Origin: Candidatus Poribacteria bacterium
GTDB taxonomy: Bacteria; Poribacteria; WGA-4E; WGA-3G
DNA length: 64,000 nt
Assembly (NCBI GenBank): GCA_963422705.1
Contig: OY730443.1
Coordinates: 3,169,394 to 3,233,393, forward strand
Direction: 5' to 3'
Shown: piece after piece, positions 28,639 to 61,213 of the stretch
Layout: each line of letters starts with the position of its first letter
Numbering within the stretch: position 1 is the stretch's first letter
Notes under the pieces: model-generated
Seen by the model: only the letters and a program-made list of their open reading frames with translations
Told to the model about the DNA's origin: nothing
The model's database searches: none
Program-made: the position numbers and the translations under genes

Positions 28639-31467
28639 ATGCGTTTTATTGCTGTTATCGTTTTCTTAATTGGGGTCGCGATTGCGATTGGGTACTTCGC
28701 ATATCAAAATCTGGGCGGCTTTGCGTCCACCAGCCTGGTTCGTTGGCTCATCGTTATTTTTGCGGTATTGTTGGGGAGCCTCATTGCGTTCGCAGCTTCA
28801 GTCATCCGATATCGGATTCCGAAAGCGGATGTTGCGCTTATTAGGACGGGGGGCTCCCGGGAAAAAATTCGTGTCACCGGCGGACTCTGGGTAAACACGA
28901 TTATTCATGAAATCAAAGAAGTTTCTCTCAATACCATGCGCATTGAGGTGGTTCGCGAGGGGCCAGAAGCGCTAATCACCTACGACTTCAACCGTGGAGA
29001 TGTTGAAGTCGTTTTTTACCTTAAGGTCGAGCCTGTAGAGGACGGTATCTTACGCGCAGCACAAGCACTCGGCGATAAATCTATGACGCCAGAAACCGTC
29101 CGTGAACTGATAGAACCTAAGCTTGAGGGGGCACTACGCAGTGTTGCCGCCGAAAGTGACATACAAGAGCTCTTGCAGAAACGACAAGAATTCGCTGATA
29201 AAGTACAAGCCACATGTGGCGAAGACCTGGAAGCACAAAATGGGTTGACACTTGAAACTGTCTCCATTATCCGCGTCGATCAGACACCCGTTGAAACATT
29301 GGATGCCGATAACCGTTTTGACGCCGTCGGTATCCGGGAAATTACTGAAATTACAGCCGAGCAGGAACGCGAAAAAACACGCATTGTTCAAGAGAAAGAT
29401 GTAGCAATCGCTCAAATTGAGATGGATGCACGCGTCCGGAAGCTTGAAATCGAACAGGAACAGTCCTGGGCAGAGTCAGATCAGCAGAAGAATATCTCTA
29501 TTTATGCAGCTGAACGGGAAGCCGAGACACTCAAATTTCAGTTTGAGATGGAGCAAGGCGTCCAAGAACGTGAATATGAGATGAAGCAAGAGGTTGAACG
29601 CGCACGCATCACACAGGAACAAGTCGTCCAAGAACGCGAAATTGAGATGAACCGGGATGTTGAAGTCGCCCGCGTCCAACAAGAACAGATTGTCGCTGAA
29701 CGCGAAATTGAGAAAAACCTTATTGTTGAAACGCAACAGATTGAACAATCCAAAGTTGTTCAACTTGCCGAAATTGAGCAGCATCTTATCGTGCAACTGC
29801 AGAAAATTGAGCAGGAACAGAGCATCGCTGTTCGTGATATAGAGAAGGAGTTATTCGTAGAGAAGGCGCGTATTGCGCAAGAAGAGGGTGTGATGCTGCG
29901 TGATATTGAGCGTGATTTACTTGTTCAGACGGAGCGTTTTAGTCAAGAGCAACAGGTTCAGCAGCGTGAGATAGAAAAGAATCTGGTTGTGGAGACAGCC
30001 CAAATCGAGCAGCTTCGGCAAGTAGAACTAGCCGAGATTGCGAAAATGCTAACGGTAGAGATAACGCGCATTGCGCAGCAACAGCAGGTGGAGACGCGCG
30101 ATATAGAGAAGGAGTTATTCGTAGAGAAGGCGCGTATTGCGCAAGAAGAGGGTGTGATGCTGCGTGATATTGAGCGTGATTTACTTGTTCAGACGGAGCG
30201 TTTTAGTCAAGAGCAACAGGTTCAGCAGCGTGAGATAGAAAAGAATCTTGTCGTGGAGACAGCCCAAATCGAGCAGCTTCGGCAAGTGGAACTGGCCGAG
30301 ATTGCGAAAATGCTAACGGTAGAGATAACGCGCATTGCGCAGCAACAGCAGGTGGAGACGCGCGATATAGAGAAGGAGTTATTCGTAGAGAAGGCGCGTA
30401 TTGCGCAAGAAGAGGGTGTGATGCTGCGTGATATTGAGCGTGATTTACTTGTTCAGACGGAGCGCTTTAGTCAAGAGCAACAGGTTCAGCAGCGTGAGAT
30501 AGAAAAGAATCTTGTCGTGGAGACAGCCCAAATCGAGCAGCTTCGGCAAGTGGAACTGGCCGAGATTGCGAAAATGCTAACGGTAGAGATAACGCGCATT
30601 GCGCAGCAACAGCAGGTGGAGACGCGCGATATAGAGAAGGAGTTATTCGTAGAGAAGGCGCGTATTGCGCAAGAAGAGGGTGTGATGCTGCGTGATATTG
30701 AGCGTGATTTACTTGTTCAGACAGAGCGTTTTAGTCAAGAGCAACAGGTTCAGCAGCGTGAGATAGAAAAGAATCTGGTTGTGGAGACAGCCCAAATCGA
30801 GCAGCTTCGGCAAGTGGAACTAGCCGAGATTGCGAAAATGCTAACAGTAGAGCAATCCCGGATTGGCCAGGAATTGCGCGTGGTGTTGACTGATGAGGAT
30901 AGAAAAATCGATGTTGCCAATAAACAGCAGTTGACAGCCCTGGCCGAAAAAGAGCAGCTGGTTGCAGAGGCTGAACGGATGGGTGCCGAAGTAGAGGTTA
31001 CCGCGACTGAACAGCGTGGAGAGGCAGAATGGCAGCGTGAAGTGGCAATCATCGGAGCGGAAGCGCAGGCACAACCAATTGAACGTCTCGCCGACGCGGT
31101 GCTTGCTGAAGCACGCGCCAAAGCACAGGGAGATATGGCAGATTACGAGGCACGAAACGTTGCTGAGCAGCGGGTTCTCGTACAGGAAGCCATCTTAGAA
31201 CTCATTGACGAACTCCCTGATATTTTTGAAGAAATGATGAAACCTGTTGAGAAAATCGACAGCATTAAGATTTTGGATATGGGGAACAATGATGGGCAAC
31301 GCGGTATCACACGTAGCAATATGGGACGTCTCGCAAATGCCTTGCTTGATACCGGCGCAATTTCACCGATGTTAAAGGAATTGTTCAACTTCGCCGATGT
31401 AGATGCGCAACAAATTACGGATAAGATTGCTGAATATCTCGCCGACTTGGTGAATCGCCCCAGTTAA
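28639..31467 (+). CDS. Flotillin/SPFH (band 7, YqiK-like) membrane protein with an expanded coiled-coil repeat region
   Basis: N-terminal TM helix plus SPFH-like segment (LIRTGGSREKIRVTGGLWVNTIIHEIKEVSLNTMRIEV). Long E/Q/R-rich heptad region containing an 88-aa unit repeated about 4 times. Confidence 0.65.
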   Translation: MRFIAVIVFLIGVAIAIGYFAYQNLGGFASTSLVRWLIVIFAVLLGSLIAFAASVIRYRIPKADVALIRTGGSREKIRVTGGLWVNTIIHEIKEVSLNTMRIEVVREGPEALITYDFNRGDVEVVFYLKVEPVEDGILRAAQALGDKSMTPETVRELIEPKLEGALRSVAAESDIQELLQKRQEFADKVQATCGEDLEAQNGLTLETVSIIRVDQTPVETLDADNRFDAVGIREITEITAEQEREKTRIVQEKDVAIAQIEMDARVRKLEIEQEQSWAESDQQKNISIYAAEREAETLKFQFEMEQGVQEREYEMKQEVERARITQEQVVQEREIEMNRDVEVARVQQEQIVAEREIEKNLIVETQQIEQSKVVQLAEIEQHLIVQLQKIEQEQSIAVRDIEKELFVEKARIAQEEGVMLRDIERDLLVQTERFSQEQQVQQREIEKNLVVETAQIEQLRQVELAEIAKMLTVEITRIAQQQQVETRDIEKELFVEKARIAQEEGVMLRDIERDLLVQTERFSQEQQVQQREIEKNLVVETAQIEQLRQVELAEIAKMLTVEITRIAQQQQVETRDIEKELFVEKARIAQEEGVMLRDIERDLLVQTERFSQEQQVQQREIEKNLVVETAQIEQLRQVELAEIAKMLTVEITRIAQQQQVETRDIEKELFVEKARIAQEEGVMLRDIERDLLVQTERFSQEQQVQQREIEKNLVVETAQIEQLRQVELAEIAKMLTVEQSRIGQELRVVLTDEDRKIDVANKQQLTALAEKEQLVAEAERMGAEVEVTATEQRGEAEWQREVAIIGAEAQAQPIERLADAVLAEARAKAQGDMADYEARNVAEQRVLVQEAILELIDELPDIFEEMMKPVEKIDSIKILDMGNNDGQRGITRSNMGRLANALLDTGAISPMLKELFNFADVDAQQITDKIAEYLADLVNRPS
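29836..30855 (+). repeat. 264-bp near-perfect tandem repeat x about 3.9 inside the flotillin-like gene
   Basis: Unit starts at 29836, 30100, 30364 and 30628 (gatatagagaaggagttattcgtagagaaggcgcg...), with only a few SNPs between copies. Confidence 0.9.
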
Positions 31468-40928: not shown

Positions 40929-43613
40929 CTATTCCTTAAGGCTGCTATAATAGAGCGCGTTGAATAACAACTTAAACGTTCCTACGGATTGCCCGCGGTG
41001 TTGGGGCTTGAATCCGAAAAGAATTACCCGTCCTTCCCCGATGCTGGTTTCCAATAGTGCGGCTTTCTGTCGGATACGTTTTTCGCCTTCTAGCCAACCA
41101 CTCATCAGTGGGTTGAACTCGGGATAGGTAGCAAGTTGTTTGGCGGCGCCCTGTCTCCCATCGAAGACGGGGCCGAATTTAAAAAAGATTGCGGTGTCCC
41201 TTTCAAGCCCATAGCCGATAGGGTGTCTCGTATCAATCCGGACGCGCAATAAGGAGCCGGGGCAGAAAAAGGTGTCTTCCTTTGAAGCATTTTTCTGTTC
41301 TACGACATTAACGATACCATTCTCGCTTAGCCCGAAGTATTTCATTGGCAATTCTGTTGCGCGATTTAGGCAGATTAGATTGCCGCCTTCCTCGATAAAC
41401 GTGCGCAAATTCGCGAGTCCCTCTATTCCGATTCCGCCGACATATTCGGGCGGTAATTTCCCGGGCGCGTGTCCATTGAGGATACCGTTTGCATCCATAT
41501 CGGGCAAAATGATGGCATCGTAGCGCGCCGCTAAATTTCCGGCGCGCATCTCGGCATTAGTAATTGTATGATAAGTAAAATTATGTGTTTCTAGCACCCA
41601 TCTCGTCCATCCTTCGTCGATGTTCGCCGTCCACGGTTTGTACAGCCCAAGGCGAGGCGGTAAAAGCTGCGTGAACCTTCGACTAAGGGGCGCATCATCC
41701 AGGGCGGCATAGGCGTACATGTGAATCCCGTATTCTTCGGCGAGTGCTTGCATCTCTTCCACTTGCTGTAAAGGCGGCACTCCTGTCCGAATTAGAATGG
41801 CCCCGGGGAGAAGTTTTTGATTTCCTTGAATCTCTATTTCGCGTTTGGCCCAATAGAGCCGGTAGGCGGGGTTCCCGTCTGCGCGCGTAGTACGCAATAA
41901 CTGGTTGAGTAACATTGTCTCTCTATTTGACCGGTTTTCAAAAAGGTAGCCAGTCGGTTCCGGAACAAGTTTCAGGCTTCCATGAATTGGGGGAAGTGAA
42001 TCGATTTTTGCCAAGTCAGCCTCAAACGGGTGCACCACGGGTACGGTTCTGACACCCATCTGCAAAGGGAGTGTCCAGCCGGCGATGTCGTACGGGCGTT
42101 CTAGCGGCGCATTTGGAGAAGGACGGCGGTCCGGGTATCTCTGAATTTCAAGCAAATCTTTGGCGTGCGCGCGAAAAGGTTGTGCCATCGAGATAACGTA
42201 AGTGCCTTCAGGATATTCCACCCCATCTGCCATAAAGTGTGATTTTGCCTGATGAATTATGACGCCCCCACGCTGAAGAATATTTAGCATCTTACGTGCG
42301 ATGTGTATGTCACGTTGACGCGTCGGTACCAGGAAGGCGCGCGGTGGTTCCTGCTGCCCTTTCTCTATTGCCTGTAGCCCCATTTTGTAAAAGTTAGTTT
42401 TCAGTGTTACTCGATGCTCGGCGGCGAAGGATAGGATTGAATGCGCTGCGGCGAGTTCATAGTTAACAATGTCTCTCAACCGCCACCATCCGCCTGGCCA
42501 CGGTTCAGGAAAGTTGGTGCGCACGGTATATTTATCAAGTCCTCGCCGGTATCCTCTCAGGGTTCCATGGGGTTGAAAAATCGGCGTCGCAATCTCCACG
42601 CGTGCTGCCTCAGTCAAAATGCCAACCATGTTGTGTCGATAGGGGGCTGTGCGAAATCCGCCATGCCACCAAGTATCATAGACGGCACTGGATAATACGC
42701 CCTTGAAGCCTTGTGTGGTTAAATCAAAAGCGAGTTGCGCGCCGATTAAGGACAAGGTTCGCTGCAAGAGCGGCGGGATGTTCGGATTAACCGGGTCAAA
42801 GTAAGGGGGAATTACAAACCGGGGGCCACGATAACTCATCTCATGAACATCGTAGACAATCTCGGGGAACCATTCTTGATATAGGACGCGTGTTAGGAGC
42901 TGCGTCTCAACCTGTGTCAACATAAACCAATCGCGGTTGTTATCATGTCCTGTATATTTCTGGTAGAGCTAAGGCAGCTCTGCGCCTTCATACGGGGTGC
43001 CGACGTTTCGGTTATACCAATCGACAACGATGTTTAACCCGTCCGGATTTGCGGACGGAATTAATAGAATTATGACGTTTTCAAGAATGGACAACATTTC
43101 AGGTGTCTCGGCGATGGCAAATTGATGTGTGAATTCCATCGCCATCTGCGAGGAGGCGAGCTCTGTTGAATGCAAGTTGCAGTTAATCAGCACGACGGTT
43201 TTCCCTTCTTGACTGAGCGCATTAAGTTCGTCTGATTCACCGTGTTTTGGCTTTGCCAATCGCTGCTGTATCGCTTGGTACCCGGCGCGATTTTTCAAGG
43301 TTTCCGGGGCAGAAATCAGCACCATAATAAAATCGTTCCCGTCTGTCGTCTTCCCAAGTTCCTCTACCTCTACCCGGGGTGAGTTGTCAGCAACGTGGCG
43401 CAGATAGGTAGAAACCGTCTGCCATCCTGCAACTTGATAATCCGAACCTACCTTAAAGCCGAGGGCCTCTTCAGGACTCATCAATTGTGCTGTGGCAGGT
43501 GAAATGGATATGCTCAACGAAAGTAGTAGCAAGCTCCACAGTCGCTGGTGTGGGATAGTATGCGTGAGAACCCGCGGCGGATATCTCCAATTCCTGTGGA
43601 TGATATTAAACAT
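40929..43613 (-). CDS. M14-family zinc carboxypeptidase, interrupted by an in-frame TAG at 42969..42971 (two ORFs 42969..43613 and 40929..42923)
   Basis: Signal peptide. Zinc ligands INCNLHSTE (HxxE) and SANPDG. Read-through of the TAG gives the conserved continuation GAELP*LYQKYTGHDNNRDWFMLTQ. Confidence 0.7.
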
Positions 43614-44182
43614 TTCTATGAATGGTTCCTTTATTTTATCTGTTTTCAGGGTTTACGGGCATTCGTTTGTTTTGCCCAATCCTTTAGGTTTGGGATATAA
43701 GCCCGCTAAGGGCCTAATCCTTGTGAAATAAATTTGACTTTTCTGCTAAAAATGTGATATCATATTCGTATCAAGTTGGCAGACATGAACAGCGTTACCA
43801 CTTGGTAGCGTGTCTGCCTACCCACTAGGGGTTTAAGACTTGAAACTTGATAGTCCATGAAAACCTATAAATACCCGCTTGGGAAACAATCTAATACGAT
43901 GCGCATTGGAAATCAGCTTGACGATATGTGGCAGGTGCATGTGTATTTCCATAAGTGGCAGCGTCACCGGTATAAATATGGTTTGCCGTATGCCAACTAC
44001 GCTGCAATGTGTCAACATGCATGCATATTGAAACGAACCACACATCCACATTGGAAGTTGTTGCCAAGCCAAGCCATCCAAGCAGAGCTAGAACGAATTG
44101 ATAATGCGTATCAAAGGTTCTTTAATAAACTGGGAGGTAACCCCCATATCAAACCTCGCCATAAGTTTAAGTCTATCACGCT

Positions 44183-44288
44183 GAAACAAACTGGATTTAA
44201 ACTGACTGATAACCGTATTACACTCACTTTTCGTCGAAACAAACTGGATTTAAACTGACTGATAACCGTATTACACTCACTTTTCGTC
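44183..44288 (+). repeat. 53-bp perfect tandem duplication (gaaacaaactggatttaaactgactgataaccgtattacactcacttttcgtc x2) that frameshifts tnpB
   Basis: Copy 1 is 44183..44235 and copy 2 is 44236..44288. 53 is not a multiple of 3, and a TAA lies just after the junction. Confidence 0.9.
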
Positions 44289-44668
44289 AGTGGGATAAAG
44301 GGAAGTGGCGATTTGATAAAGTGCCAACTACGTTTCATAAGCACCGCCAGTGGCATGGGACTCTCCGTCGTATCACAATCAAATGTGATAATTGTGGCGA
44401 CTATTGGCTTTACATCATAACGGATGACACCGATTTTAAACCGCTGCCGACAACAGGTAAAAGCGTTGGGGCAGACTTCGGAATGAAAGACGCGTACTTG
44501 ACACTTAGCACGGGTGAGAAGATACAACACCCCGAACCTTTGAAACAGTCCTTGAACAAACTTCGGACTCTCAATAAAGCGTTTTCTCGTAAAGTTAAAG
44601 GTTCTGGCAACTGGTGGCGATGTGTCAGGCAACTTGCACGTCTGTATCGGAAAATTAGCAACCACCGC

Positions 44669-44691
44669 GAAACGGCGGTTTCGCCCTACGC
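44669..44691 (+). repeat. 23-nt hairpin mini-repeat gaaacggcggtttcgccctacgc, copy 1, in-frame inside tnpB-1 (encodes ..ETAVSPYA..)
   Basis: Identical 23-mer found four times in the window. Stem gaaac/gtttc with loop ggcgg. Absent from the aligned position of the second TnpB. Confidence 0.85.
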
Positions 44692-44949
44692 TAAAGATTT
44701 TCACTGGCAACTGGCAAGTGAACTTTGTAAAAAGTTTTCTTGCTTTGTCCTTGAGACGTTGAACCTTGACGGCATGAAACGACTGTGGGGGCGTAAAGTC
44801 TCGGACCTCGCCTTCTACCAGTTCGTTGAGATATTGGAATATAAGTGCAGTAAACATAAACGTATGAGGAAACAAATCGGACAATGGACGCCGACAACGA
44901 AGCCGTGTTCAGATTGTGGGTATCACAACAAAGAACTAAGACTTTCAGA

Positions 44950-45171
44950 TAGGCAGTGGACATGCCCCGACTGTGGTCCACACCACGACAGAGACATCAA
45001 CGCTGCGATAAACATTTTGCGGGCAGGGATAGCCGTCACTTGACGATATGCCTGTAGAAAACTACAGGGAAATGCCCGTAGGTGGAGCGACAGTAAGACG
45101 GTGGACACTTTGAGAAAACCGCAGTTGCTATGAAACCGAAGCCCCACGCTTTAGCGTGTGGGTGCTATCAC
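44950..45171 (+). ncRNA. Candidate TnpB-associated reRNA/omegaRNA scaffold (3' end of tnpB plus RE)
   Basis: By analogy with IS200/IS605 TnpB systems, the guide RNA derives from the tnpB 3' end through the RE boundary (…ctatcac at 45171). The 5' boundary is a guess. Confidence 0.3.
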
Positions 45172-45600
45172 GAAAGTATAATATAGAATGTCCGATGTGT
45201 CCAGAATGATTTTGTCCGAATGAGTTATCGTAGGTTTTAAAAGGAGTGATACCGTTCCCAATGAGAACCTTGCAGGCGCGCTTGCCAAGTGCGCAGTTTG
45301 AGACAGCTCCGGTGAAGATAAATGTCGCGGTATTTTTCTACTACACTGTAATTCTCGACTAGAAAGTCAATAACCCCCGACTTCAGTCGGGGGCTTGTGC
45401 GAAGCGTATACCAAACGTTCACTCCACAAGTTAAACGATTTTCTACAGTAAAATATCGCTTTATCTGGGCGTGGTGGCCTAAACAATGTTTCGGATACTC
45501 CCCTCGTCCGATTCACGCTACGATATTGCGCTCTGGAAGGGGCAATATACAACCCGTAAGGGAGATTACAAACGATGTTTGTTCCGGTGACGAGTCAAAC
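45172..45600 (+). ncRNA. Candidate omegaRNA for the downstream IsrB-like gene (about 400-nt ORF-poor structured region)
   Basis: Lies immediately 5' of, and overlapping, the IsrB-like start, as in IscB/IsrB loci. Contains a strong hairpin cccccgac-ttca-gtcggggg (45374..45393). No convincing protein ORF. Confidence 0.35.
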
Positions 45601-46375
45601 AGGTGCCTTGTTGATGCCGACGCGTGCGAACAAGGCGGGCATGCTGATTAAGAAAGGTTTCGCCACGCCCTATTGGTCAAATGGGATATTCTGTATCCGG
45701 CTTAACTATGCTACCGAAGCCGCATACACACAAGATATCGTCGTCGGTGTAGAACCCGGTAGCAAGAAAGAAGGCTTTACCGTCACATCAGCATCTCATA
45801 CCTATTTGAATGTTCAGGCAGACGCTCACGTCGGTGTCGGTAAGAAAGTGGCGAAGCGTCGAGAGTTGCGTAGAAGTCGGCGTTCACGAAAGTGTCCGAA
45901 TCGCAAGAATAGAACCAACCGTCTTGCGAATAGAGCGCGTATCCCCGCAGGCACACGTGCGAGATGGGACTGGAAACTTCGGATATTGGATTGGTTGTCC
46001 AAACTGTATCCGGTTAGCCACGTTTGTGTTGAGGATATTAAGGCACGGACAATAGAACGTGCGAAGAAGTGGAACACCTCCTTTAGTCCGCTTCAAGTTG
46101 GTAAACAGTGGTTCTATCGCGAAATCCGTAAACGGTGGGAACTGTTCACTTTACAAGGGTGGGAGACGAAAGAAATACGAGAGAGGTTAGGTCTCAAGAA
46201 GTCTTCAAAGAAACTATCGGAACCCTTTGATGCGCATTGCGTAGATTCTTGGTGTCTGGCACATCATACCGTAGGCGGTTTGGATATACCCGATAACACG
46301 TCGCTTCCGAAACGGCGGTTTCGCCCTACGCTTGTGTATCTCACCGATACCGATAAAACGCAGAGAGTTGCATAG
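45575..46375 (+). CDS. Compact IsrB-like (HNH-less IscB) OMEGA nuclease, 266 aa
   Basis: N-terminal PLMP-like domain (GALLMPTRANKAGMLIKKGFATPYW). RuvC-I IVVGVEPGSKKEGFTV. Arg-rich bridge helix KRRELRRSRRSRKCPNRKNRTNR. RuvC-II VSHVCVEDIKA. RuvC-III FDAHCVDSWCLAHH. No CxxC/HNH insert between RuvC-II and RuvC-III. Confidence 0.6.
   Translation: MFVPVTSQTGALLMPTRANKAGMLIKKGFATPYWSNGIFCIRLNYATEAAYTQDIVVGVEPGSKKEGFTVTSASHTYLNVQADAHVGVGKKVAKRRELRRSRRSRKCPNRKNRTNRLANRARIPAGTRARWDWKLRILDWLSKLYPVSHVCVEDIKARTIERAKKWNTSFSPLQVGKQWFYREIRKRWELFTLQGWETKEIRERLGLKKSSKKLSEPFDAHCVDSWCLAHHTVGGLDIPDNTSLPKRRFRPTLVYLTDTDKTQRVA
46309..46331 (+). repeat. Same 23-nt hairpin mini-repeat, copy 2, in-frame near the 3' end of the IsrB-like gene (encodes ..KRRFRPTL..)
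   Basis: Exact 23-mer match. Confidence 0.85.
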
Positions 46376-51241: not shown

Positions 51242-51276
51242 TTCTATACCGATTAGTCGTATAAGTTTAAGATGGA

Positions 51277-52416: not shown

Positions 52417-52535
52417 GGACAAAGCTGCAGAAATCCCGGAGCCCTTTACCCCAGAAAGCTTTAAAGCTCCCCCGTCAAATCCCCATGCTTTAGCTTTCGG
52501 GATGTAGACGGCGAAGTTCCTGATAGAACATATAG

Positions 52536-52672: not shown

Positions 52673-53041
52673 GTGATTTGGTGTACCAAGTATCGTCGTA
52701 AGGTTTTGGATACACAGATACAAGGACGCCTGAAACACCTCATACGAGAAAAACAGGACGCGTCTGAATATCAAATCTGTGAGGGTGAAACTCACCCTGA
52801 ACCTGTCCATTTGCTAATAGAAATACCGCCAATACATGCTATTGATAAAATCGTTGGCAAAATCAAAGGTTATACCGCGGCAAGCATGTTGCTTGCTACC
52901 TTTAAAGTTTTGCGAGAAGAATATCCGTGCCTGAAAAGTCGTTTGCCGTCTTTATGGACACGTTCAAAGTTTGTCAGTTCCTGTGGTGGCGTAACGCTCC
53001 AAGTCATCAAGGACTATATTGAAGCTCAAAGTGGACAATGA
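52673..53041 (+). CDS. tnpA: IS200/IS605 HUH (Y1) transposase TnpA
   Basis: HVIWCTKYRRKVL…HLLIEIPP… motif pattern of IS200 TnpA. Homology continues upstream to about 52625 (NDKTSNKTLSSCQYHV) with no in-frame ATG, and the ATG at 52629 is in the +1 frame. Confidence 0.8.
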   Translation: MIWCTKYRRKVLDTQIQGRLKHLIREKQDASEYQICEGETHPEPVHLLIEIPPIHAIDKIVGKIKGYTAASMLLATFKVLREEYPCLKSRLPSLWTRSKFVSSCGGVTLQVIKDYIEAQSGQ

Positions 53042-54268
53042 GAAAAGCCAGCAAGTTCAAACTTCAAAATCAATCGAACATCGTCAAAATCGGCAATATG
53101 CTTGACGATATGTGGCAGATACACCAGCAATTCATGCTTTTACAGCGTAGGTTTTAAGGTGATGATAAGTTGCATGAGAAATCTCCGACGAGATTATTAA
53201 GGGATTGTCAAAAACAGCAGAAGCTCAACCGACTAAGCACGACGAAAAATCGCATGTTCGGCTTTCAACCTGCCCGCATCTCGCATCAACAAACATATTG
53301 TGAAACTCAAGAAGCGCACAAAACCACATTGGGCAGACTTGCCGAGTCAAGTTGTGCAAGACGTTGTTCTGCGATATGGCAAATCACAAGACGCATTTTT
53401 CCAAAACATAGAAGAACGCAAAGCCGGTAAGACAAGACGTAAAGTCGGTAAACCGAAAATCAAACCGAGACACAAATACACCTCTATGACTTTCACACAA
53501 AGCGTAGGGCGAAACCGCCGTTTCGCGGGCTACACACTTGAAAAAAATCGTATCAAAATCAACGGTATAGATACGTGGTTCTCCTTCCACAAACACCGTG
53601 AAATCAACGGGACAATCAAGACGATAACACTCAAACGGGACAGGTGCGGTGATTATTGGATATGCTTTTCGTGCGCGAATGTTGACGATTCCGAACCGAA
53701 ACTCAAGACGGGTAAGAGCGCAGGGTTTGATTACGGAAACAAAACATTCCTTACAAGCGACGAAGGCAACAAGATAGAATCTCCGCAGTTTTTCAAACAC
53801 TCCCTGAAAACGTTGCGATGCCTGAGCAAAGCCCTGAGTCGTAAAGTCAAAGGTTCTAACAACTATTATCGTGCGTGTCGTGCTTTGGCGAGGCACCACA
53901 GAAAAGTCGCGCGCCAAAGAGAAGAGTGGCAGTGGAAACTTGCCACCGAACTTTGCACGGCGTTTGATATACTCTGTTTTGAAACACTGAATCTTGACGG
54001 TATGAAACGCCTTTGGGGACGCAAAGTCTCTGAACACGCAGAGGATCAGTTCATACAGATATTGGAACAGAAGTGTGCAAAGCATGGTAAAAAACTTGAG
54101 CGAATCAGTCAGTGGACACCTACAACAAAACCATGCAGTGATTGCGGATACCATAATCAAGAACTCTCTCTTTCTGATAGACAGTGGACTTGTCCCGACT
54201 GTGGTTCTCATCACGATAGAGACGTCAACGCTGCTATCAATATCAAACGGGCAGGCTTGGCTGCCTAA
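53038..54268 (+). pseudogene. tnpB: TnpB gene interrupted near codon 40 by a foreign about 130-nt segment (N-terminal fragment 53038..53160, remainder 53300..54268)
   Basis: N-terminal fragment MRKASKFKLQNQSNIVKIGNMLDDMWQIHQQ… then a stop. The remainder resumes at the equivalent of about residue 65 (KLKKRTKPHW…) and runs to CSDCGYHNQELSLSDRQWTCPDCGSHHDRDVNAAINI. Confidence 0.75.
53502..53524 (-). repeat. Same 23-nt hairpin mini-repeat, copy 4 (reverse orientation), in-frame inside tnpB-2 (encodes ..GRNRRFAG..)
   Basis: Exact reverse-complement 23-mer match. Absent from the aligned position of TnpB-1. Confidence 0.85.
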
Positions 54269-54488
54269 AGTGGAGCGACAATGAGACGGGGTTTCTCTCA
54301 GAGAAAAGCGCCGTCGCTACGAAGCACAAGCCCCTACCTTCAGGGAGTGGGTACCTATGCTGCTATCAATATCAAACGGGCAGGCTTGGCTGCCTAAAGT
54401 GGAGCGACAATGAGACGGGGTTTCTCTCAGAGAAAAGCGCCGTCGCTACGAAGCACAAGCCCCTACCTTCAGGGAGTGGGTACCTATG
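54231..54488 (+). repeat. 129-bp perfect tandem duplication spanning the last 12 codons of tnpB-2 plus the RE
   Basis: Copy 1 is 54231..54359 and copy 2 is 54360..54488. Each begins ctgctatcaatatcaaacgggcaggcttggctgcctaaagtggagcgacaatgagacgg… and ends …gggtacctatg. Confidence 0.9.
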
Positions 54489-54726
54489 ACAGCGACGTTT
54501 AAAGCCTATTTTGTGAAATTCGGCCTCGCCTATCGCATTCGGATGGATACGATGATTGCCCTGTTTATTTTTTTATGGCAATTTACCGATTGATAGCGGC
54601 GCAAGCGCGACGGCTCTGGCTGCACTGCGCGACGGGTGTCTTAAAGTTCGACGAACGGGATTTGGCCAGTACCTCATTTATTCTCCGGTAGTAAATCAGT
54701 CATGTTTAAAATCGACTACCCTCTCT

Positions 54727-55659
54727 ATGAAACCGAAACTCATCTGCCTCCTTGGCCCAACAGCCGTCGGAAAAACGGAAATAGCCATTGAATTGGCTAA
54801 TCACCTCAATGCCGAGATTGTGTCTGTCGATTCTCGGCAAATCTATCGGCACCTAGACATCGGCACAGCGAAACCGACACACGAGCAACAGAACGCAGTC
54901 CCACACCACCTCATCGATTGTGTCGATATCGCGGAGCCGTTTTCCGCCGCTGACTATCAGAGGTTGGCTGATACAGCAATTGTGGATATTCAAAAGAGAG
55001 GTAAGATATCTCTGCTGGTGGGCGGTGCGGGACTCTATTTTCGTGCGATTGTGGATGGGTTGTTTCAAGGACCGGGGGCAGATACCGCAATTCGGGAACG
55101 ACTTCAACGCGAAGCGGCGCATGCCGGGCCCGAATTGCTCCATAACCGGCTCTGCAGTTGTGACGCGGATGCTGCAGCACGTATTCACCCGAACAACGTA
55201 GTGCGAGTCATCCGGGCTCTAGAAATCTACGAACTCACCGGTACTCCGATTTCCCAACTGCAGCAACAGTGGAATCATCAGCAAATTGACAAACCGCCGC
55301 GATACCCGTTTACTGCTTTTTGCCTCAGCATGTCACGAGCTTACCTCTACCAGCGCATTGAACAGCGCGTTGATTTGATGATGACGAACGGACTCATCGA
55401 AGAAGTTAAGGGGGTACTGACGCGCGGATATCCGAGGGATTCTATCGCGCTGCAGAGTTTCGGATACAGAGAACTGATTGCCTATCTTGAACAGGAATGC
55501 CCGTTAAACGAAGCGATTGTAAAGGTGAAGCAGAACACTCGACGCTTTGCGAAACGCCAATTGACATGGTTCCGCAAAGATTCGCGCCTCGAATGGGTAG
55601 AGCGTGGAACGATTACAGAGGTTGTCGCTCACCTATTAGCGCGGGCTGAGCATATCTAA
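54727..55659 (+). CDS. miaA: tRNA dimethylallyltransferase MiaA
   Basis: P-loop LLGPTAVGKTEIAIELA and VSVDSRQIYRHLDIGTAKP. The ORF is open from 54556, but the Met at 54727 (MKPKLICLLGP) fits MiaA N-termini. Confidence 0.85.
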   Translation: MKPKLICLLGPTAVGKTEIAIELANHLNAEIVSVDSRQIYRHLDIGTAKPTHEQQNAVPHHLIDCVDIAEPFSAADYQRLADTAIVDIQKRGKISLLVGGAGLYFRAIVDGLFQGPGADTAIRERLQREAAHAGPELLHNRLCSCDADAAARIHPNNVVRVIRALEIYELTGTPISQLQQQWNHQQIDKPPRYPFTAFCLSMSRAYLYQRIEQRVDLMMTNGLIEEVKGVLTRGYPRDSIALQSFGYRELIAYLEQECPLNEAIVKVKQNTRRFAKRQLTWFRKDSRLEWVERGTITEVVAHLLARAEHI

Positions 55660-55760
55660 TTCTCCATTCATCTGATGCGGTACATACAACTTCATGAGGA
55701 GATTCAGCGCATCACACGCACCGCAGGAAACCGCGCTAAGCGAACAGCGTGTTTCTTTGT

Positions 55761-58700
55761 TCACGCTTCCGTCAACTCAGACGGTAACCCCTCAATAATT
55801 TCAGTCGACGCAACGCTCACATAAACCAGGCGTTTTATCACGGTAATAAGTTCATCCGGTTCTGCAAACCACTCATTTGCGTCATTGATGATGCCACTCT
55901 CCTTGTCCCGCGTCACCTTGTACCTATCAATTAACCACTCCAGGGGCGTCCGTCCGTTAACCACATACCGATGCGCCTCCGAAGGGATACCCGATACGCG
56001 CGTCTCCTCATTGATGATAAGCGTCTCTTTGCTCACCTTATCCGAAAAACGCATCGACTTCGAACTCAACTGAAAATTCCCCGTCGGGGCATCCACGGAA
56101 AGGGGGTACGCCTCACACGTCTCATAATTCAGGTGTAGGCGCGCTAGCGCCGCACCCGCATCCGAAAACGCGCTGAAATCAGGCGCAAACGGAATGCGCG
56201 GCAACATCTTGGTGACATCATTCGCGAACTTTTCACGATACACCGACGAATGCAATACGCCGTAAACATAATCGAAAATCGCATCCTTCGTGATGCCGTC
56301 ATCCCGGTAATGCGCACGGAACGCCGCCAGCGCCGTATCCGATATGTTGTCAAGACGCCGGCCACTGATTGGGTATTCCCACCGCGGAAAGCATTGGCAC
56401 CCATTGTTTAAACCGCATTCCGGCATCGTATCCGTGATAAGCGCGGAAAACGGCTTTTTGGAACCGATACCCGGCACACATATCACCCGGTTTTCACTCG
56501 ACAAGGGAGGAAACATCCTGTCCATCCAGTGTTTACTCTGTGCGAGCGTATAATCCGCGTAATAATTCGTGGGCACAAACGGGCGATAGCTCACCTTTCG
56601 AAGGTATTCTGCTTTAAAGTCAACCCTTTTCTTTTGTTCGAGTCTCTTTTTCAGCGCTGCTCCCCACTTAATATTCTGTCTTGCGTTGTGCCGGTGTACC
56701 ACCTCATCCACAGTGAGTTCAGGATTTGCCTCAAGTTCAGCAATTGCTGCGCGGTACTCTTTCGTCATGCGGCGGGCGTTGTCGAGGCATGCGTGTCGTG
56801 AGAAGTTGTGGAGGTAGGCGTCCCTACCCGTTGCATACCCGCGTGAATATAACTTAAATATCGCATCGTCCGCCTTGCCCACCTTTGTCTCCTTGGTGCC
56901 CATCGGGTAAAACCGTGCAAACGCATCGCTCCGCTGGTTAACCCAATCGTGATGAGCATTCGGCGTAATTGTCTGCCAATCGCGAACCCCTTTGATGGAG
57001 CCAGCATCCCGCAACGCCGTTAGCTTCTCCTCGCGCGTGAGGTAATCCCCGATATCGCGGTATCGGATTTCACACCTTTTCGTCGTTTTCAGTGCGCTAA
57101 ACTTCTGCTGTTTTTGGCAATCCGTTGATAATCTCGTCGGAGATGCTTTCGTCGTGCTTAGTCGGTTAAGCTTCTGCTGTTTTTGGCAATCCGTTGATAA
57201 TCTCGTCGGAGATGCTTTCGTCGTGCTTAGTCGGTTAAGCTTCTGCTGTTTTTGGCAATCCGTTGATAATCTCGTCGGAGATGCTTTCGTCGTGCTTAGT
57301 CGGTTAAGCTTCTGCTGTTTTTGGCAATCCGTTGATAATCTCGTCGGAGATTTCTCATGTTTTTGTCGTGCTAAGCGATGGGGGTTTTTTACCAAGATGG
57401 TGATGGCAACCGGGGCGCGGGAACCGCTGCCGAAAGCATTTCCACCTTCCGCACGTCGCCGTTCTCCAGAGGTCTCGCATCCCCTCGAAGGTGTAGCACG
57501 TAGATAGAACTGAATTCGGAGGCGAGACATGCCCGGAGCCCCGCATCGGCGTTCCCATCAACCCACGAACCGTTGGTAACGAAGGCGATAACCCCCTCTT
57601 CGCCAATTCTGTCGCTTGCCCACCGGAGTGCCAGTTTGTAGGTATCGTAGAGACTATTCTTATTGGTTACTGTCGATGCCGCGGCATAGGTGTCCCGGAT
57701 GCGTTTTTCAAGCGCCGGATAGTGCACGTTAGGGTTGTCATTGGCAGCACTCTTCTGCCCCACGGACCACGGTGGGTTACCGACGATGACACGGATACGC
57801 CGTTCCTGTTGATTCTCGGTGCGTTCGTTGTTATCCATCAGCCAGAGCAGGGGTTCTGTCTCTCTGTCCGGAATTGGTGTTGTGTTGAGCGTGAAAGTAT
57901 CGGTGAGGGCGATGCCGTTGAACGGTTGTTTCTCAAGTCCCGTCTGCGCACCCATGGACGCAGCCCCTTCAGGGCGCCGGCTGCGGAAGGCTTCGGCGAT
58001 ATTGATGGCGGCGATGTAATAAGCGAGGAGTACGATTTCGTTGGCGTGTAGTTCCTCCCGATATTTCCGTTCCACGTCCGCGGGCGCGATGAGTTCAGAT
58101 TGCAGCAGGCGCGCCAGAAAGGTGCCAACGCCGGCGAACGGTTCTAGGACATGAACACCTTCATCGGAGAGGCTTCGTCCGAATTCATCGGTGAGCACGT
58201 CGTCGGCGCTTTTCAAAATGAAGTCGACGATGTCCACCGGCGTGTAGACGATACCGAGTCGTTCCGCCTCTTGTTTCAGCGCCGTGGCGAAAAATTTCTC
58301 GTAGAGTTCCAACAGCACGCGCTGTTTCCCCGCGCTGTTATCGATGCCGCGGGCGCGCATGCGGACGCTGTCGTAAAAGCCTTCCAAGTCCCGCGTCTCA
58401 TCTAAGAGTCCGAATTCGGCGAAATCGGCCCGGAGCGTGTCCAGCGCTATCGCCACCGGGTTGCTAGAGGCGAATACGTCATTCTCAAAGAGTGCGTCGA
58501 AAACGGGATTTGTGATGATATGCTGTGCCATCATATCGATGGCGTCGCCGCGAGTGATAGCGTCGTTTATCGCGCTTTTGAGTTCGGCATGGAATGCGTC
58601 AAACCATTCTTGCAGCGCCGTGTTTGCTGGATGTCGCAGTAATCCCTCAATGCGTGCGACGACGCGCAAGAAAATATCGGCGACGTCCTTCGCCCAGCTC

Positions 58701-60829
58701 TCCCAATATTTCCTATCGCCGCACTGTTCCACGATTTGCGCGAAGATAGCGTCCGCGGGGATATCCAGCGGCAACGTCAGCTGTGAGGAAAACGCCGCAT
58801 CGCCGTTAAACTCGCCCTTAAATTCGCCCTCAAAGATGATGCGCTGGGTGGGCGTCGTGTTGATATCGATGCTGTTGATTTCCGCGTTGAGTCTATCGTC
58901 GTGTGAACGGAGCGCGCGGAGCACATTCCACACAGATTTGAAGCGTTCGGTGTCATTGAGGATTTTGCCCGGTTCGGCGCCCTCCGGTATCGCGACAGGC
59001 AGGATAATGTACCCATAAGTCTTCCCCGGCGATTTGCGCATCACGCGTCCTACCGCCTGCACGATATCGACGTATGAGTTCCGCGGCGTCATGAAAAGCA
59101 CCGCGTCGAGGGCAGGGACGTCGATACCTTCGGAGAGACACCGGGCGTTGGAGAGGATGCGGCAGACGTCATCGCCACCACCTTTCAACCATTCAATCCG
59201 TTTTTTTCGTAAGAGCGCATTATCTTTCCCGTCAACGTGTTCGGTTTGGCACTCAAACCGCGCTATGCTTTGCGTGTCGGACAGCTGCTGTCGTGCGGTG
59301 TCGATAACACCGTTCCAATGTTTGACAAGGCTTTTCGACGCGGCGATGGTATTGGAGAAAGCGATGGCACGCGTCAACGGCTGCCTATCGGTATCCGCTT
59401 TTCTTTCAGGGTTTTGGAGCGCCCGCCAGCACCCCACAATTTTTGTCGCGTCGTTAATGTTAATCTCCCCGCCACCCGCGGCGATGTATTTCTGCAGTAC
59501 GGGGCCCACCCCTTGCTCCGACATCGCGAGCACAACTACCTTGTAGTCAGAGAGTAAGTCCTGCTCAACCGCGCGCGAGAAGGGCAGCCGGTGAAATTCT
59601 GCCCCGTAGGTAGCCGCATCGTCCATCGAATAAACGTCTCTCTCATGTCGCGCGGCCTTCGCTTTGGCCCCGGCGGTATAGAGGCGGGATGTCGCCGTCA
59701 TGTAGAGGCGTCTCTTCGCGTGAATGCGCGCCGCATCGTGGATGAGCACGAACGGCGAGGTGGTATCGTCCGGGGCTTCGACACCCGTGGTGCGGTGCGC
59801 TTCATCACAAAGCACGATATCAAACGGCGGCGCCCCCTCTTTTTGCGCGGTTTCCACAATCGGCAGCGACTGATACGTGCAGAAAACCACCCGCATATTA
59901 TCGGCATCCGGTTTCTGTAGTGCCGCGGAGATGTCGCCCACAGCTGTCGTCACAGGGAGTTCGAGTTCGAGGAGGGATGCATCTTCAGCGGTTTTGCCCG
60001 CCTTTGTATCAGAGCAGATACCGATGTATCGGTGCGGTATCGCCTGCTGCTCCGCCCATTCGCGCATCGCTTGCGAAAAGAGCCCAATAGACGGCACAAG
60101 ATAGAGCACGCGCCCGCCGACACCGGCGAGATGTTCGGCGATGCGGAGTGCCGTGAAGGTTTTCCCCGTGCCGCACGCCATCAGCAGTTTACCACGCGCA
60201 GCGGTTTTGAACCCGTGAACCACATCGTCAAACGCCTCCCGCTGATGCGTCCGGAGGCGGAACGTCTCGTGTCGATACGCGAGCTGTTCAGGCGCTTGCC
60301 GACTGAGTTCCGGCCAGGTTACCGGGCGGCTGGCGAGTTCCGCGGCGCTGATGCGTTGGCATGCCGGGCGCAGCCCATCCAGTGTTTTACGCACATTCGC
60401 GCTCCAGGTATCGCTCGTATCCACGAAGATACGCGCGGTAAAAGGCTCCCGCGCCGACGCGGCGATAAAGGTGTCGACAACAGCCTTCGTGATACGCGTA
60501 TTTTCCGCATAACATTTGCATTGGATGGCGCAGTAGCCACCGGCGCGCTCTTCGGCGACAATATCGATACCGGTATCAACCGCGTCAAACTCCGGACGGC
60601 GTTCCGCCCATTCCCCCCACAGATAGACAGCGGCGAAGCGTTTTTTGTAGAAAGCGTCTTCGCGAAGATAGCTTTGTATCAACCGCTCAAACAGTCTCCC
60701 CTTTTCGTATTCGCTATCCGCATGCTCACGAATGTAAGTGAGCGCCCTGTCGAACCCGTTATCCGTTTCCGCCGTTTCGGTTCCCAATTCGAGATAAGCT
60801 TGTGTCACTTCTGACATATCGGTTTCCAA
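55761..60829 (-). CDS. Type ISP restriction-modification enzyme (LlaGI/LlaBIII-like), apparently frameshifted at about 57472 and carrying a 4 x 23-aa repeat insertion
   Basis: Mrr-like PD-(D/E)xK FDAVDTGIDIVAEE…IQCKCY. SF2 ATPase CGTGKT and DEAH. gamma-class N6-adenine MTase IVGNPPW. A 1-nt correction restores the conserved LRGDARTSGERRRAEGGNAFGSGSRAPVAITILVKNP…IRYRDIGDYLTREEKL and the C-terminal TRD. Confidence 0.8.
57081..57365 (-). repeat. 69-bp perfect tandem repeat x about 4 (in-frame, encodes ASPTRLSTDCQKQQKLNRLSTTK x4) inside the Type ISP gene
   Basis: Unit starts at 57102, 57171, 57240 and 57309 (cttctgctgtttttggcaatccgttgataatctcgtcggagatgctttcgtcgtgcttagtcggttaag). A about 78-nt module about 92% identical is present once at 53170..53250 inside tnpB-2. 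Confidence 0.9.
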
Positions 60830-61213
60830 TTCAGATTTGTTTTAGTGTGTTCGTATTGTAACGTTATCATTGATTTTTCTACCCATTTTCTTACAGTTCA
60901 TCGGTAGTTTTCTTGGCTATGCTGCCTATTCTATAATGATAATTGTATACTCAATTTTTGTCAAGTAAAAAAATATCGTCATGTAGTTCCTATTTCCATT
61001 TCACATGAGAAATTTACCCATTCATCTCTGTGCCCGAATTCTGTTCCGAGGGCATCGGATGACACTATCAGTGAAATATTGTTTGTAATTTTGTCTAAAA
61101 TTTGGTATACTTTTAGCGTACGGTTATGAATTTTTTGAGCAGAATCGTGTGAAAAATAAACAGTAGAAAATAAAAGGGATTGAGTTATTTGGTGGTTCCT
61201 GTGGGAGGCAATC

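What the first reader, a model, noticed from the sequence alone, without database searches (positions are those of the whole stretch)
57440..57530. Type ISP restriction enzyme gene split by a single-nucleotide frameshift within the conserved LRG..R-TSGE..GG.FGSGSR motif
ORF 57389..60829 ends …HLRGDARPLENGDVRK… while ORF 55761..57530 begins …ETSGERRRAEGGNAFGSGSRAPVAITILVKNP. Adding one nucleotide near 57472 (gcgaga-cc) joins them into the canonical motif of Type ISP/IIG methyltransferases. This is either a sequencing indel, a pseudogenised defence gene, or an on/off (phase) switch. R-M inactivation next to IS elements is biologically plausible.
Basis: partly seen in the sequence, partly recalled or inferred. 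Interest (0 to 1): 0.5.

Follow-up and report, generated by a model that had tools for sequence, protein, structure and literature searches.

The report
Frameshifted Type ISP restriction gene remnant
A large single-protein restriction-modification (phage defence) gene in a sponge-symbiont-like bacterium has lost one base and so is cut into two reading frames; this is most likely an ordinary, recently dead gene, not a genetic switch.

Summary
On the minus strand, 60817..55761 encodes a complete Type ISP restriction-modification enzyme (Mrr nuclease, SF2 ATPase, coupler, N6-adenine methyltransferase, target-recognition domain). Its reading frame changes exactly between 57473 and 57472. Homologues read GAT GCx AGA ACx TCT GGx GAx (D-A-R-T-S-G-E). 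The window reads GAT GCG AGA CC TCT GGA GAA, so one A of AGA-ACC is missing.

No homopolymer, short repeat or slippery heptamer lies at the site, so a phase switch or programmed frameshift is not supported. Relatives from sponge-symbiont genomes do carry real repeat-tract switches in this gene, but at other positions, and none is broken here.

Other genes in the window are also damaged (both tnpB copies, and an M14 peptidase with an in-frame TAG), while about 30 housekeeping genes look intact. A true, recent pseudogene is therefore the best reading. A sequencing indel cannot be excluded without reads.

A 288-nt in-frame insertion, built on a 69-nt tandem repeat, sits in the methyltransferase-TRD linker, which is 19 aa in 65 of 66 homologues and 115 aa here. 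A 95% identical 75-nt copy interrupts the nearby IS605 tnpB. The finding itself is ordinary; the repeat is a minor unexplained curiosity.

The parts
55761..60817 (-). Whole Type ISP restriction-modification gene remnant. Probable ATG start at 60817; the mechanical ORF start is TTG 60829.
   Evidence: The repaired 1689-aa product has Mrr_cat_2, ResIII/Helicase_C, ISP_coupler, N6_Mtase/Eco57I and Type_ISP_C. It matches LlaBIII at E=4e-301. Homologue P0005 starts at the position of the ATG.
57473..60817 (-). Upstream part in frame A: nuclease, ATPase, coupler, and methyltransferase up to ...LHLRGDAR (R1119 of the repaired model).
   Evidence: tblastn gives a single HSP in frame -1 down to 57473, 66-70% identity, no stops. 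Motifs GTGKT, DEAH and GNPPW are present.
57472..57473 (-). Frameshift junction. One A is missing (ancestral AGA ACC, now AGACC).
57389..57472 (-). Out-of-frame tail of the upstream ORF (27 codons PLENGDVRKVEMLSAAVPAPRLPSPSW, then TAA). The same DNA in frame B encodes the conserved TSGERRRAEGGNAFGSGSRAPVAITILVKN.
55761..57472 (-). Downstream part in frame B: the last methyltransferase strands, the expanded linker, and the target-recognition domain.
   Evidence: tblastn frame -3 HSPs cover 57473..57378 and 57086..55767. Type_ISP_C scores 2.2e-90.
57075..57380 (-). Expanded MTase-TRD linker: 102 codons where homologues have 6, a net insertion of 96 aa (288 nt). It contains a 69-nt tandem array: a partial first unit, three identical units, and a last unit with a diverged 3' end. 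It is in frame and free of stops.
   Evidence: TRF 57098..57351, period 69, 3.7 copies, 99% matches. Repeat families. The segment has no counterpart in homologues. The linker is 19 aa in 65 of 66 homologues against 115 aa here.
53155..53247 (+). 93-nt in-frame insertion in IS605 tnpB copy 1. It begins TAA-GGTGATGATAAG-TTG. Its last 75 nt (53173..53247) are 95% identical to the first unit of the array in the Type ISP gene, in the same orientation and reading frame relative to the host gene.
   Evidence: (I1: 75 nt, 95%). Removing the 93 nt plus 1 nt restores a 378-aa TnpB that aligns with copy 2.
60936..60964 (-). Promoter-like site (TTGACA-17-TATCAT, 11 of 12) about 120 nt upstream of the start codon.
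   Evidence: This is a consensus match only; the number of such sites in the region is no higher than in shuffles.

Best explanation
This is a horizontally acquired Type ISP restriction-modification gene that has recently become a pseudogene.

How the intact enzyme works (established knowledge from LlaGI and LlaBIII): one polypeptide recognises an asymmetric site through its C-terminal TRD. It methylates one adenine with its gamma-class MTase. On unmodified DNA it uses its SF2 ATPase to translocate, and it cuts with the N-terminal Mrr nuclease when two enzymes collide head-on.

What is shown here: a single A was lost from AGA-ACC inside the MTase motif LRGxxR|TxGE. Translation therefore runs 27 wrong codons and stops at 57389.

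What is inferred: the 1146-aa product lacks the last MTase strands and the entire TRD, so it cannot find its site. Methylation and restriction are lost together, which is harmless to the host. The downstream 589-codon frame has no demonstrated start of its own and lacks the catalytic MTase core.

The gene also carries a 288-nt in-frame insertion, built on a 69-nt tandem repeat, in the otherwise length-invariant MTase-TRD linker. This fits relaxed selection. The rest of the 5-kb gene is free of stops and keeps all catalytic motifs, so the inactivation is recent.
For: The frame change is located to 57473/57472, and the missing base is identified by comparison with the homologue loci in which the motif could be located. 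All domains and motifs are otherwise intact.

There is no repeat tract or slippery site at the junction.

There is a second lesion in the same gene: the linker is 115 aa against an invariant 19 aa.

Other real lesions lie in the same window:
- An M14-like peptidase has an in-frame TAG at 42969-42971, a substitution rather than an indel.
- tnpB copy 1 has an insertion, a 1-nt frameshift and a 129-nt duplication.
- tnpB copy 2 is broken by a perfect 53-nt duplication.

About 30 housekeeping genes (gyrA, ftsH, folP, mqnA, htrA, mnmA, miaA and others) show full-length Pfam coverage.

Homologues are often broken elsewhere:
- L001 has an in-frame TAA.
- P0005 has an internal deletion.
- About 20-25 of 82 loci show frame changes, stops or insertions.
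- Many short out-of-frame fragments appear in the protein database.

The gene's GC content (0.53-0.57) is higher than its surroundings (0.46-0.50), and there is no synteny with relatives, which fits an acquired island.

Precedent: the H. pylori Type ISP genes HP0667-0669 and JHP0612-0613 are split by authentic frameshifts not due to repeats (PMC3936762).
Against: No reads are available, so the deletion could be an assembly error. The 1700 nt downstream of the shift contain no stop, and every motif is conserved. That is what an intact gene with a consensus error would also look like.

The exact ORF products were not found in any independent assembly.

Genes without Pfam hits in the window could not be checked for frameshifts, so the argument that only mobile or defence genes are hit is incomplete.

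The linker insertion is in frame and could be tolerated, so it is not proof of decay.
Confidence: 0.72

Rival explanations
1. Consensus or assembly indel. The organism has an intact 1689-codon Type ISP gene, and the missing A is an error of sequencing or polishing.
For: The gene is otherwise perfectly preserved over 5 kb. A one-base deletion in a two-base A run is a possible long-read error. No independent assembly of this stretch could be retrieved.
Against: The site is not a homopolymer of a length prone to error.

About 30 housekeeping genes in the same 64 kb have no frameshift. The two 1-nt indels seen both lie in about 6 kb of defence or mobile genes out of about 55 kb of coding sequence; under uniform errors this has p of about 0.01 (inference).

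The window also has a nonsense substitution and perfect tandem duplications in dispensable genes, which are not typical consensus errors.

Two Logan contigs made independently from run ERR11641160 are 100% identical to the window over 3.5 kb.
Confidence: 0.17
2. Reversible phase switch or programmed recoding. The frame is restored at useful frequency by repeat-tract slippage, transcriptional slippage or -1 ribosomal frameshifting.
For: Phase-variable R-M genes are well known (Cj0031 Type IIG, PMC4889913). Relatives of this very gene carry long repeat tracts, such as (GGAC)8-15, (GACA)20, (AG)20-24, G12 and G23, with both in-frame and out-of-frame states.
Against: The window's gene has no mono- to nonanucleotide repeat tract anywhere. 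The junction GCG AGA CCT CTG has no X XXY YYZ heptamer and no A/T run. None of the 82 homologue loci has a break or a tract at this position. The only repeat in the gene has a 69-nt period, a multiple of 3, so it cannot change the frame.
Confidence: 0.03
3. Functional split system. The two ORFs are both expressed and reassemble, or the TRD-containing ORF works on its own, as H. pylori HP0669 does as a stand-alone methyltransferase.
For: HP0669 (MTase plus specificity domains) alone is an active methyltransferase (PMC3936762). Both window ORFs are long and open. An ATG at 57530 precedes the downstream part.
Against: Here the break lies inside the MTase fold (LlaGI R955|T956 in 5ffj numbering), so neither piece has a complete catalytic domain. 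The first 17 residues of the downstream ORF are out-of-frame sequence with no clear ribosome-binding site. No homologue shows this split.
Confidence: 0.05

Closest known systems
LlaGI and LlaBIII, the characterised Type ISP restriction-modification enzymes of Lactococcus lactis (PDB 5ffj, 4xqk)
   Same: Same domain order and the same motifs: Mrr-like nuclease, SF2 ATPase with GTGKT and DEAH, coupler, NPPW methyltransferase, LRGDxRTxGE...GSGSR, TRD. E is about 1e-300 over the full length once the frame is repaired.
   Different: The gene is split by a 1-nt deletion at the position equivalent to LlaGI R955|T956. It carries a 96-aa insertion between the positions equivalent to 985 and 990. Its closest relatives (57-73% aa identity) are from uncultured Poribacteria and other sponge-associated MAGs, not Firmicutes.
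Helicobacter pylori HP0667-HP0668-HP0669 (HpyAXVIII) and JHP0612-JHP0613, Type ISP genes split by authentic frameshifts (PMC3936762)
   Same: A Type ISP gene cut into consecutive ORFs by frameshifts that are explicitly not due to sequence repeats.
   Different: In H. pylori one fragment retains MTase plus TRD and is active alone. Here the break is inside the MTase domain, so no fragment is expected to be active.
Cj0031 of Campylobacter jejuni, a phase-variable Type IIG enzyme (PMC4889913), and SSR-controlled mod and hsdS genes in general
   Same: A single-polypeptide R-M enzyme whose expression depends on the reading frame.
   Different: Those switches rest on a hypermutable repeat tract, and the window has none at the frameshift. 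Such tracts do exist in relatives of the window gene (L018, L025, L053, L062 and others), but at other positions.
Rickettsia palindromic elements and other small repeats that insert in frame into coding genes (reviewed in PMC10969869). Also copy-number changes of short repeats in the central region of Type I HsdS, as in EcoR124I/II (own knowledge).
   Same: The 75-nt sequence lies inside two unrelated genes in the same orientation and the same open reading frame. In the Type ISP gene it keeps the frame open.
   Different: Only two loci are known, both in this window. There is no palindromic structure or terminal inverted repeats. There was no match in public genomes, metagenomes, viral contigs, proteins or Rfam. 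It is tandemly amplified at one site. Membership of any known repeat family is not shown.

Membership tests
Type ISP restriction-modification enzyme | N-terminal Mrr-like PD-(D/E)xK nuclease domain | tested here: met
   PF13156 Mrr_cat_2, E=1.1e-34, residues 57-181. DTGIDIVAE...AIQCK aligns with DTGVDLVAE...AIQAK of LlaBIII.
Type ISP restriction-modification enzyme | SF2 helicase-like ATPase with Walker A and DEAH motifs | tested here: met
   ResIII 3.3e-20 and Helicase_C 1.1e-07. ACGTGKT and CDEAH are present in the translation.
Type ISP restriction-modification enzyme | Coupler domain between the ATPase and the methyltransferase | tested here: met
   PF22240 ISP_coupler, 1.3e-39, residues 708-833, full profile.
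Type ISP restriction-modification enzyme | Gamma-class N6-adenine methyltransferase domain (NPPW catalytic motif), uninterrupted | tested here: not met
   The motifs are present (GNPPW; LRGDAR/TSGE...GSGSRAPV), but the domain is cut by the frameshift at 57473/57472.
Type ISP restriction-modification enzyme | C-terminal target-recognition domain (Type_ISP_C) | tested here: met
   PF18135, 2.2e-90, profile positions 1-340 of 342.
Type ISP restriction-modification enzyme | All activities on a single polypeptide | tested here: not met
   As encoded there are two overlapping ORFs, 57389..60829 and 55761..57530. A single ORF exists only after one base is added. The locus is therefore filed as a gene remnant of this family, not as an active member.
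Type ISP restriction-modification enzyme | One-strand adenine methylation of an asymmetric site, ATP-driven translocation, cleavage on head-on collision | not testable with these tools
   This needs methylome data or biochemistry.
SSR-type phase-variable R-M gene | Hypermutable mono- to nonanucleotide repeat tract at the frame-changing site | tested here: not met
   A regex scan of 55701..60900 found none. The junction is GAT GCG AGA CCT CTG.
SSR-type phase-variable R-M gene | Length heterogeneity among reads or cells | not testable with these tools
   No reads are available.
Programmed -1 ribosomal frameshift or transcriptional slippage | Slippery heptamer X XXY YYZ, or an A/T run, at the point where homology changes frame | tested here: not met
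   The sequence at 57480-57465 is GCGAGACCTCTGGAG. The homology switch is exact at 57473.
Small in-frame mobile repeat (RPE- or MITE-like), for the 75-nt sequence | Many dispersed copies in the genome | tested here: inconclusive
   Two loci in 64 kb. The rest of the genome is not available. There were 0 exact matches in public collections and 0 peptide matches.
Small in-frame mobile repeat (RPE- or MITE-like), for the 75-nt sequence | Palindromic structure or terminal inverted repeats | tested here: not met
   The fold z-scores range from -1.4 to +0.3. The only structure is a 6-bp hairpin, AATCTC-CGAC-GAGATT.

The most novel reading that the evidence does not exclude
The 75-nt sequence shared by the Type ISP linker and tnpB could be a previously undescribed small repeat element of this Poribacteria-like genome. 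It would insert into coding regions in one open frame, in the manner of Rickettsia palindromic elements, and then amplify in tandem.

Its presence in the MTase-TRD linker, where relative L062 carries an (AAGC)6 tract, would then be part of a wider phenomenon. Type ISP enzymes of sponge symbionts would be modulated by repeats at a few insertion-tolerant hot spots. The frameshift would be a secondary event in a gene already altered in this way.
Probability: 0.15. Interest if true: 0.5.

Novelty: new member of a known kind. Interest (0 to 1): 0.2.

Why it matters
In itself it matters little. It adds one more decayed restriction-modification gene to a symbiont-type genome, and for annotation it should be labelled a pseudogene rather than two genes.

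It has some value as context. Type ISP genes are widespread and horizontally shared among sponge-associated bacteria of many phyla. A quarter or more of them are broken or carry repeat tracts. This points to rapid turnover and possibly stochastic switching of this defence in that community. The window copy is an example of the turnover, not of the switching.

Tried and rejected
- **Exact look-ups of both ORF products**, with ATG or TTG start, in public assemblies found nothing on record. No independent assembly of the frameshift site was obtained. Neighbouring mnmA and miaA were found only on short Logan contigs from run ERR11641160, which stop before the gene.
- **Scans for the 69/75-nt repeat** gave 0 hits each: two 22-24-mers in metagenome contigs, one in genome contigs and one in viral contigs. 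nhmmer and blastn over the window and 82 loci found only the five known copies.
- **A search with the 102-aa repeat peptide** against 5.8 billion proteins found nothing.
- **Rfam** gave no hit in the window at gathering thresholds.
- **Folding of the repeat on either strand** gave no significant structure. An RNA or hairpin-element reading was therefore dropped.
- **A DGR template/variable-repeat idea** was rejected, because the differences between copies are not adenine-specific.
- **Synteny with relatives** was absent, so no orthologous intact allele could be compared.
- **A short-query protein search** meant to surface identical short fragments found nothing above 80% identity.
- **tRNA scan**: none in the window, so no tRNA-linked island boundary could be set.
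- **Alternative genetic code (TAG as sense)** as an explanation for the M14 stop was rejected, because other genes show no in-frame TAG.
Full report
**1. What is in the sequence**

Two overlapping ORFs lie on the minus strand. The first, 57389..60829 (1146 codons), ends ...LHLRGDARPLENGDVRKVEMLSAAVPAPRLPSPSW. The second, 55761..57530 (589 codons), begins MSRLRIQFYLRATPSRGCETSGERRRAEGGNAFGSGSRAPVAITILVKNP.

Adding one A between 57473 and 57472 fuses them into a 1689-codon ORF without internal stops. The fused product has the full Type ISP architecture:
- Mrr_cat_2 (1.1e-34)
- ResIII, DEAD and Helicase_C
- ISP_coupler (1.3e-39)
- N6_Mtase/Eco57I
- Type_ISP_C (2.2e-90)

It matches the solved Type ISP enzymes LlaBIII (4xqk, E=4e-301) and LlaGI (5ffj, E=4e-300). 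The probable true start is the ATG at 60817, which is where homologue P0005 begins.

**2. Exact nature of the lesion**

tblastn with homologues shows the homology leaving frame -1 at 57473 and continuing in frame -3 from the same nucleotide. For example, P0028 residues 2-950 map to 60352..57473, and residues 951-982 map to 57473..57378.

In the related loci fetched from species-representative genomes where the motif could be located (about 65 of 82), it is read in frame as LRG-x-x-R-T-x-GE. The closest codon contexts are L010 and L072 (GAT GCA AGA ACx TCT GGx GAG) and L004 (AAT GCG AGA ACA TCC). The window reads GAT GCG AGA CC TCT GGA GAA.

One A of AGA-ACC is therefore missing. In LlaGI numbering (5ffj) the break falls between R955 and T956, inside the methyltransferase fold.

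**3. Is it a switch?**

No.
- The junction has no homopolymer longer than two, no short-sequence repeat and no slippery heptamer.
- A scan of the whole gene for mono- to nonanucleotide tracts found none.
- The only repeat in the gene has a period of 69 nt, a multiple of three.

The same scan of the homologues shows what a real switch looks like in this family. Sixteen to twenty of the 80 loci carry long tracts concentrated at a few positions:
- Around residue 955: (AG)20-24 in L070, L076 and L080.
- In the MTase-TRD linker: (AAGC)6 in L062.
- Around residue 1345 in the TRD: (GGAC)8 in L018, (GGAC)15 in L025, (GACA)20 in L053, (AG)24 in L032, (CCGGACAA)21 in L054, a pentanucleotide tract in L066, and C9 to G12 runs.

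In-frame states (L025, L021, L062) and out-of-frame states both occur. None of these hot spots coincides with residue 1119, and no homologue is broken there.

**4. True mutation or assembly error?**

This cannot be settled without reads, but the balance favours a true mutation.

About thirty housekeeping genes in the window have full-length profile matches and no split. They include gyrA, ftsH, folP, mqnA, a DinG-like helicase, htrA, mnmA and miaA.

The damaged genes are all dispensable:
- The Type ISP gene.
- IS605 tnpB copy 1, with a 93-nt insertion beginning with TAA, a further 1-nt frameshift, and a perfect 129-nt duplication at its 3' end.
- tnpB copy 2, with a perfect 53-nt tandem duplication that breaks the frame.
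- An M14-like peptidase with an in-frame TAG at 42969-42971. The Pfam match runs across the stop when it is read as W.

These are shown. A nonsense substitution and tandem duplications are not typical consensus errors.

Two contigs assembled independently (Logan) from run ERR11641160 are 100% identical to window 50265-52495 and 54462-55738. The organism is therefore in that run, and the assembly is accurate there. Neither contig reaches the frameshift, however.

The relatives retrieved are mostly closed long-read MAGs from sponge metagenomes. I infer, but cannot show, that the window comes from a similar high-accuracy assembly.

**5.

Directly after ...ILVKNP the gene contains 102 codons where homologues have six. 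The distance from GSRAPV to YRDIG is 19 aa in 65 of 66 homologue matches and 115 aa here, a net insertion of 96 aa or 288 nt. LlaBIII and LlaGI have no counterpart to it.

The insertion is a 69-nt tandem array (57098..57351, 3.7 copies, 99% matches). It has a truncated first unit, three identical inner units, and a last unit whose 3' third has diverged. That pattern is typical of a biological array, not of an assembly artefact.

It is in frame and stop-free in only this one sense frame. It encodes a polar 23-aa unit, ASPTRLSTDCQKQQKLNRLSTTK.

A 75-nt copy, 95% identical to the first unit, lies at 53173..53247 inside the N-terminal part of tnpB copy 1. It has the same orientation and the same reading frame relative to its host gene.

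I could not find this sequence or its peptide anywhere else:
- Genome, metagenome and viral contigs.
- 5.8 billion proteins.
- Rfam.
- The 82 related loci.

It has no significant secondary structure. Its origin is unexplained. It could be a small dispersed repeat of this genome, or a local templated copy between two loci 4 kb apart in inverted orientation.

**6. Context**

The closest relatives (57-73% aa identity) are in Candidatus Poribacteria MAGs and single-cell genomes. Near-equally similar copies occur in sponge-associated Bryobacterales, Vicinamibacterales, Alpha- and Gammaproteobacteria and others.

There is no synteny around them. The gene's GC content is above that of its neighbours. 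Both points fit horizontal acquisition.

Decay is common in the family:
- L001 (a 5.9-Mb closed contig) has TYQSLP changed to TY*SLP.
- P0005 has lost about 230 aa internally.
- About 20-25 of 82 loci show frame changes, stops or insertions.
- Many short out-of-frame fragments are in the protein database.

A frameshifted Type ISP gene is also documented in H. pylori, explicitly not due to repeats (PMC3936762).

**7. Mechanism and verdict**

Established knowledge for LlaGI and LlaBIII: the TRD finds an asymmetric site, the MTase methylates one strand, and on unmodified sites the ATPase translocates. The Mrr nuclease cuts when two enzymes collide.

Shown here: the frameshift removes the last MTase strands and the TRD from the only product that has a recognisable start.

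Inferred: both modification and restriction are lost at once, which carries no cost to the host. The loss is recent, because 1700 nt downstream remain open and all motifs are intact.

My probabilities:
- True recent pseudogene: about 0.72.
- Assembly indel: about 0.17.
- Functional split: about 0.05.
- Phase switch or recoding: about 0.03.

The finding is real but ordinary. The linker repeat, and the repeat-tract hot spots in relatives, are the only points of wider interest.

Noticed in passing
window 57075..57380 (-) and 53155..53247 (+): A 69-nt tandem array adds 96 aa in frame to the otherwise length-invariant MTase-TRD linker of the Type ISP gene. A 95% identical 75-nt copy is inserted, in the same orientation and frame, in IS605 tnpB copy 1, preceded there by TAA-GGTGATGATAAG-TTG (stop, SD-like sequence, start). 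No match was found anywhere in public data. Its origin is unexplained.
   Followed up: partly
L018 11954-11985; L025 11975-12034; L053 11951-12030; L032 12044-12091; L054 12002-12169; L066 11979-12188; L062 11405-11428; L070 10906-10945; L076 10856-10897; L080 10880-10927; L073 12549-12571: Type ISP homologues in sponge-symbiont MAGs of several phyla carry long short-sequence repeats of different units: (GGAC)n, (GACA)n, (AG)n, penta- and octanucleotides, and G/C runs. The tracts sit at the same few positions of the gene (about residues 955, 1150 and 1345), and in-frame and out-of-frame states both occur.

In L018, L053 and L066 the TRD tract is followed by two tandem copies of the segment ENRVICVPG...GQCFPR lying in different reading frames. 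This looks like widespread phase variation of Type ISP enzymes. I found no description of it in the searchable literature.
   Followed up: partly
window 42969..42971 (gene 40929..43613, -): An M14-like peptidase gene of about 894 codons is interrupted by a single in-frame TAG (...GAELP*LYQKYTGHDNNRDW...). This is probably TGG to TAG. The Pfam M14 match continues across it.
   Followed up: yes
window 44183..44288 (tnpB copy 2, 43857..45043, +): A perfect 53-nt tandem duplication breaks the reading frame of a second IS605-family tnpB. Removing one copy restores a 377-aa TnpB.
   Followed up: yes
window 54230..54487: A perfect 129-nt tandem duplication covers the last 39 nt of tnpB copy 1 and the region downstream, which is likely the omega-RNA or right-end region. 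The independent Logan contig L084 starts 26 nt before the end of the second copy, as expected for a de Bruijn graph branch at a real repeat boundary.
   Followed up: partly
window 53038..54268 (+), near 53266: tnpB copy 1 overlaps the tnpA stop (ATGA). Besides the 93-nt insertion, it has a 1-nt frameshift (GGC TTT C AAC CTG).
   Followed up: yes
L001 5829-5831: The Type ISP homologue in a closed 5.9-Mb Poribacteria-like contig (ERZ25084387) is cut by an in-frame TAA (TYQSLP to TY*SLP) and has a tnpB gene just upstream. P0005 (GCA_000406005.1) has lost about 230 aa of the helicase C-terminal region.
   Followed up: yes
window 29836..30852: A 264-nt repeat (3.9 copies, 98% matches) lies in frame inside a 942-aa flotillin/Band 7-like gene (28639..31467).
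   Followed up: no
window 45575..46375 (+) and upstream 45050..45570: A 266-aa ORF with an RRXRR domain (PF14239, the family that includes the N-terminal domain of IscB/IsrB-type proteins) lies next to tnpB copy 2. The 500 nt upstream are non-coding and contain hairpins. There was no Rfam hit at gathering threshold.
   Followed up: no
L083, L084 (Logan, run ERR11641160): Contigs 100% identical to window 50265-52495 and 54462-55738 show that the source organism is present in the public run ERR11641160. The look-up index also reports a contig longer than 1 Mb carrying the exact MiaA product, but that contig was not shown.
   Followed up: partly
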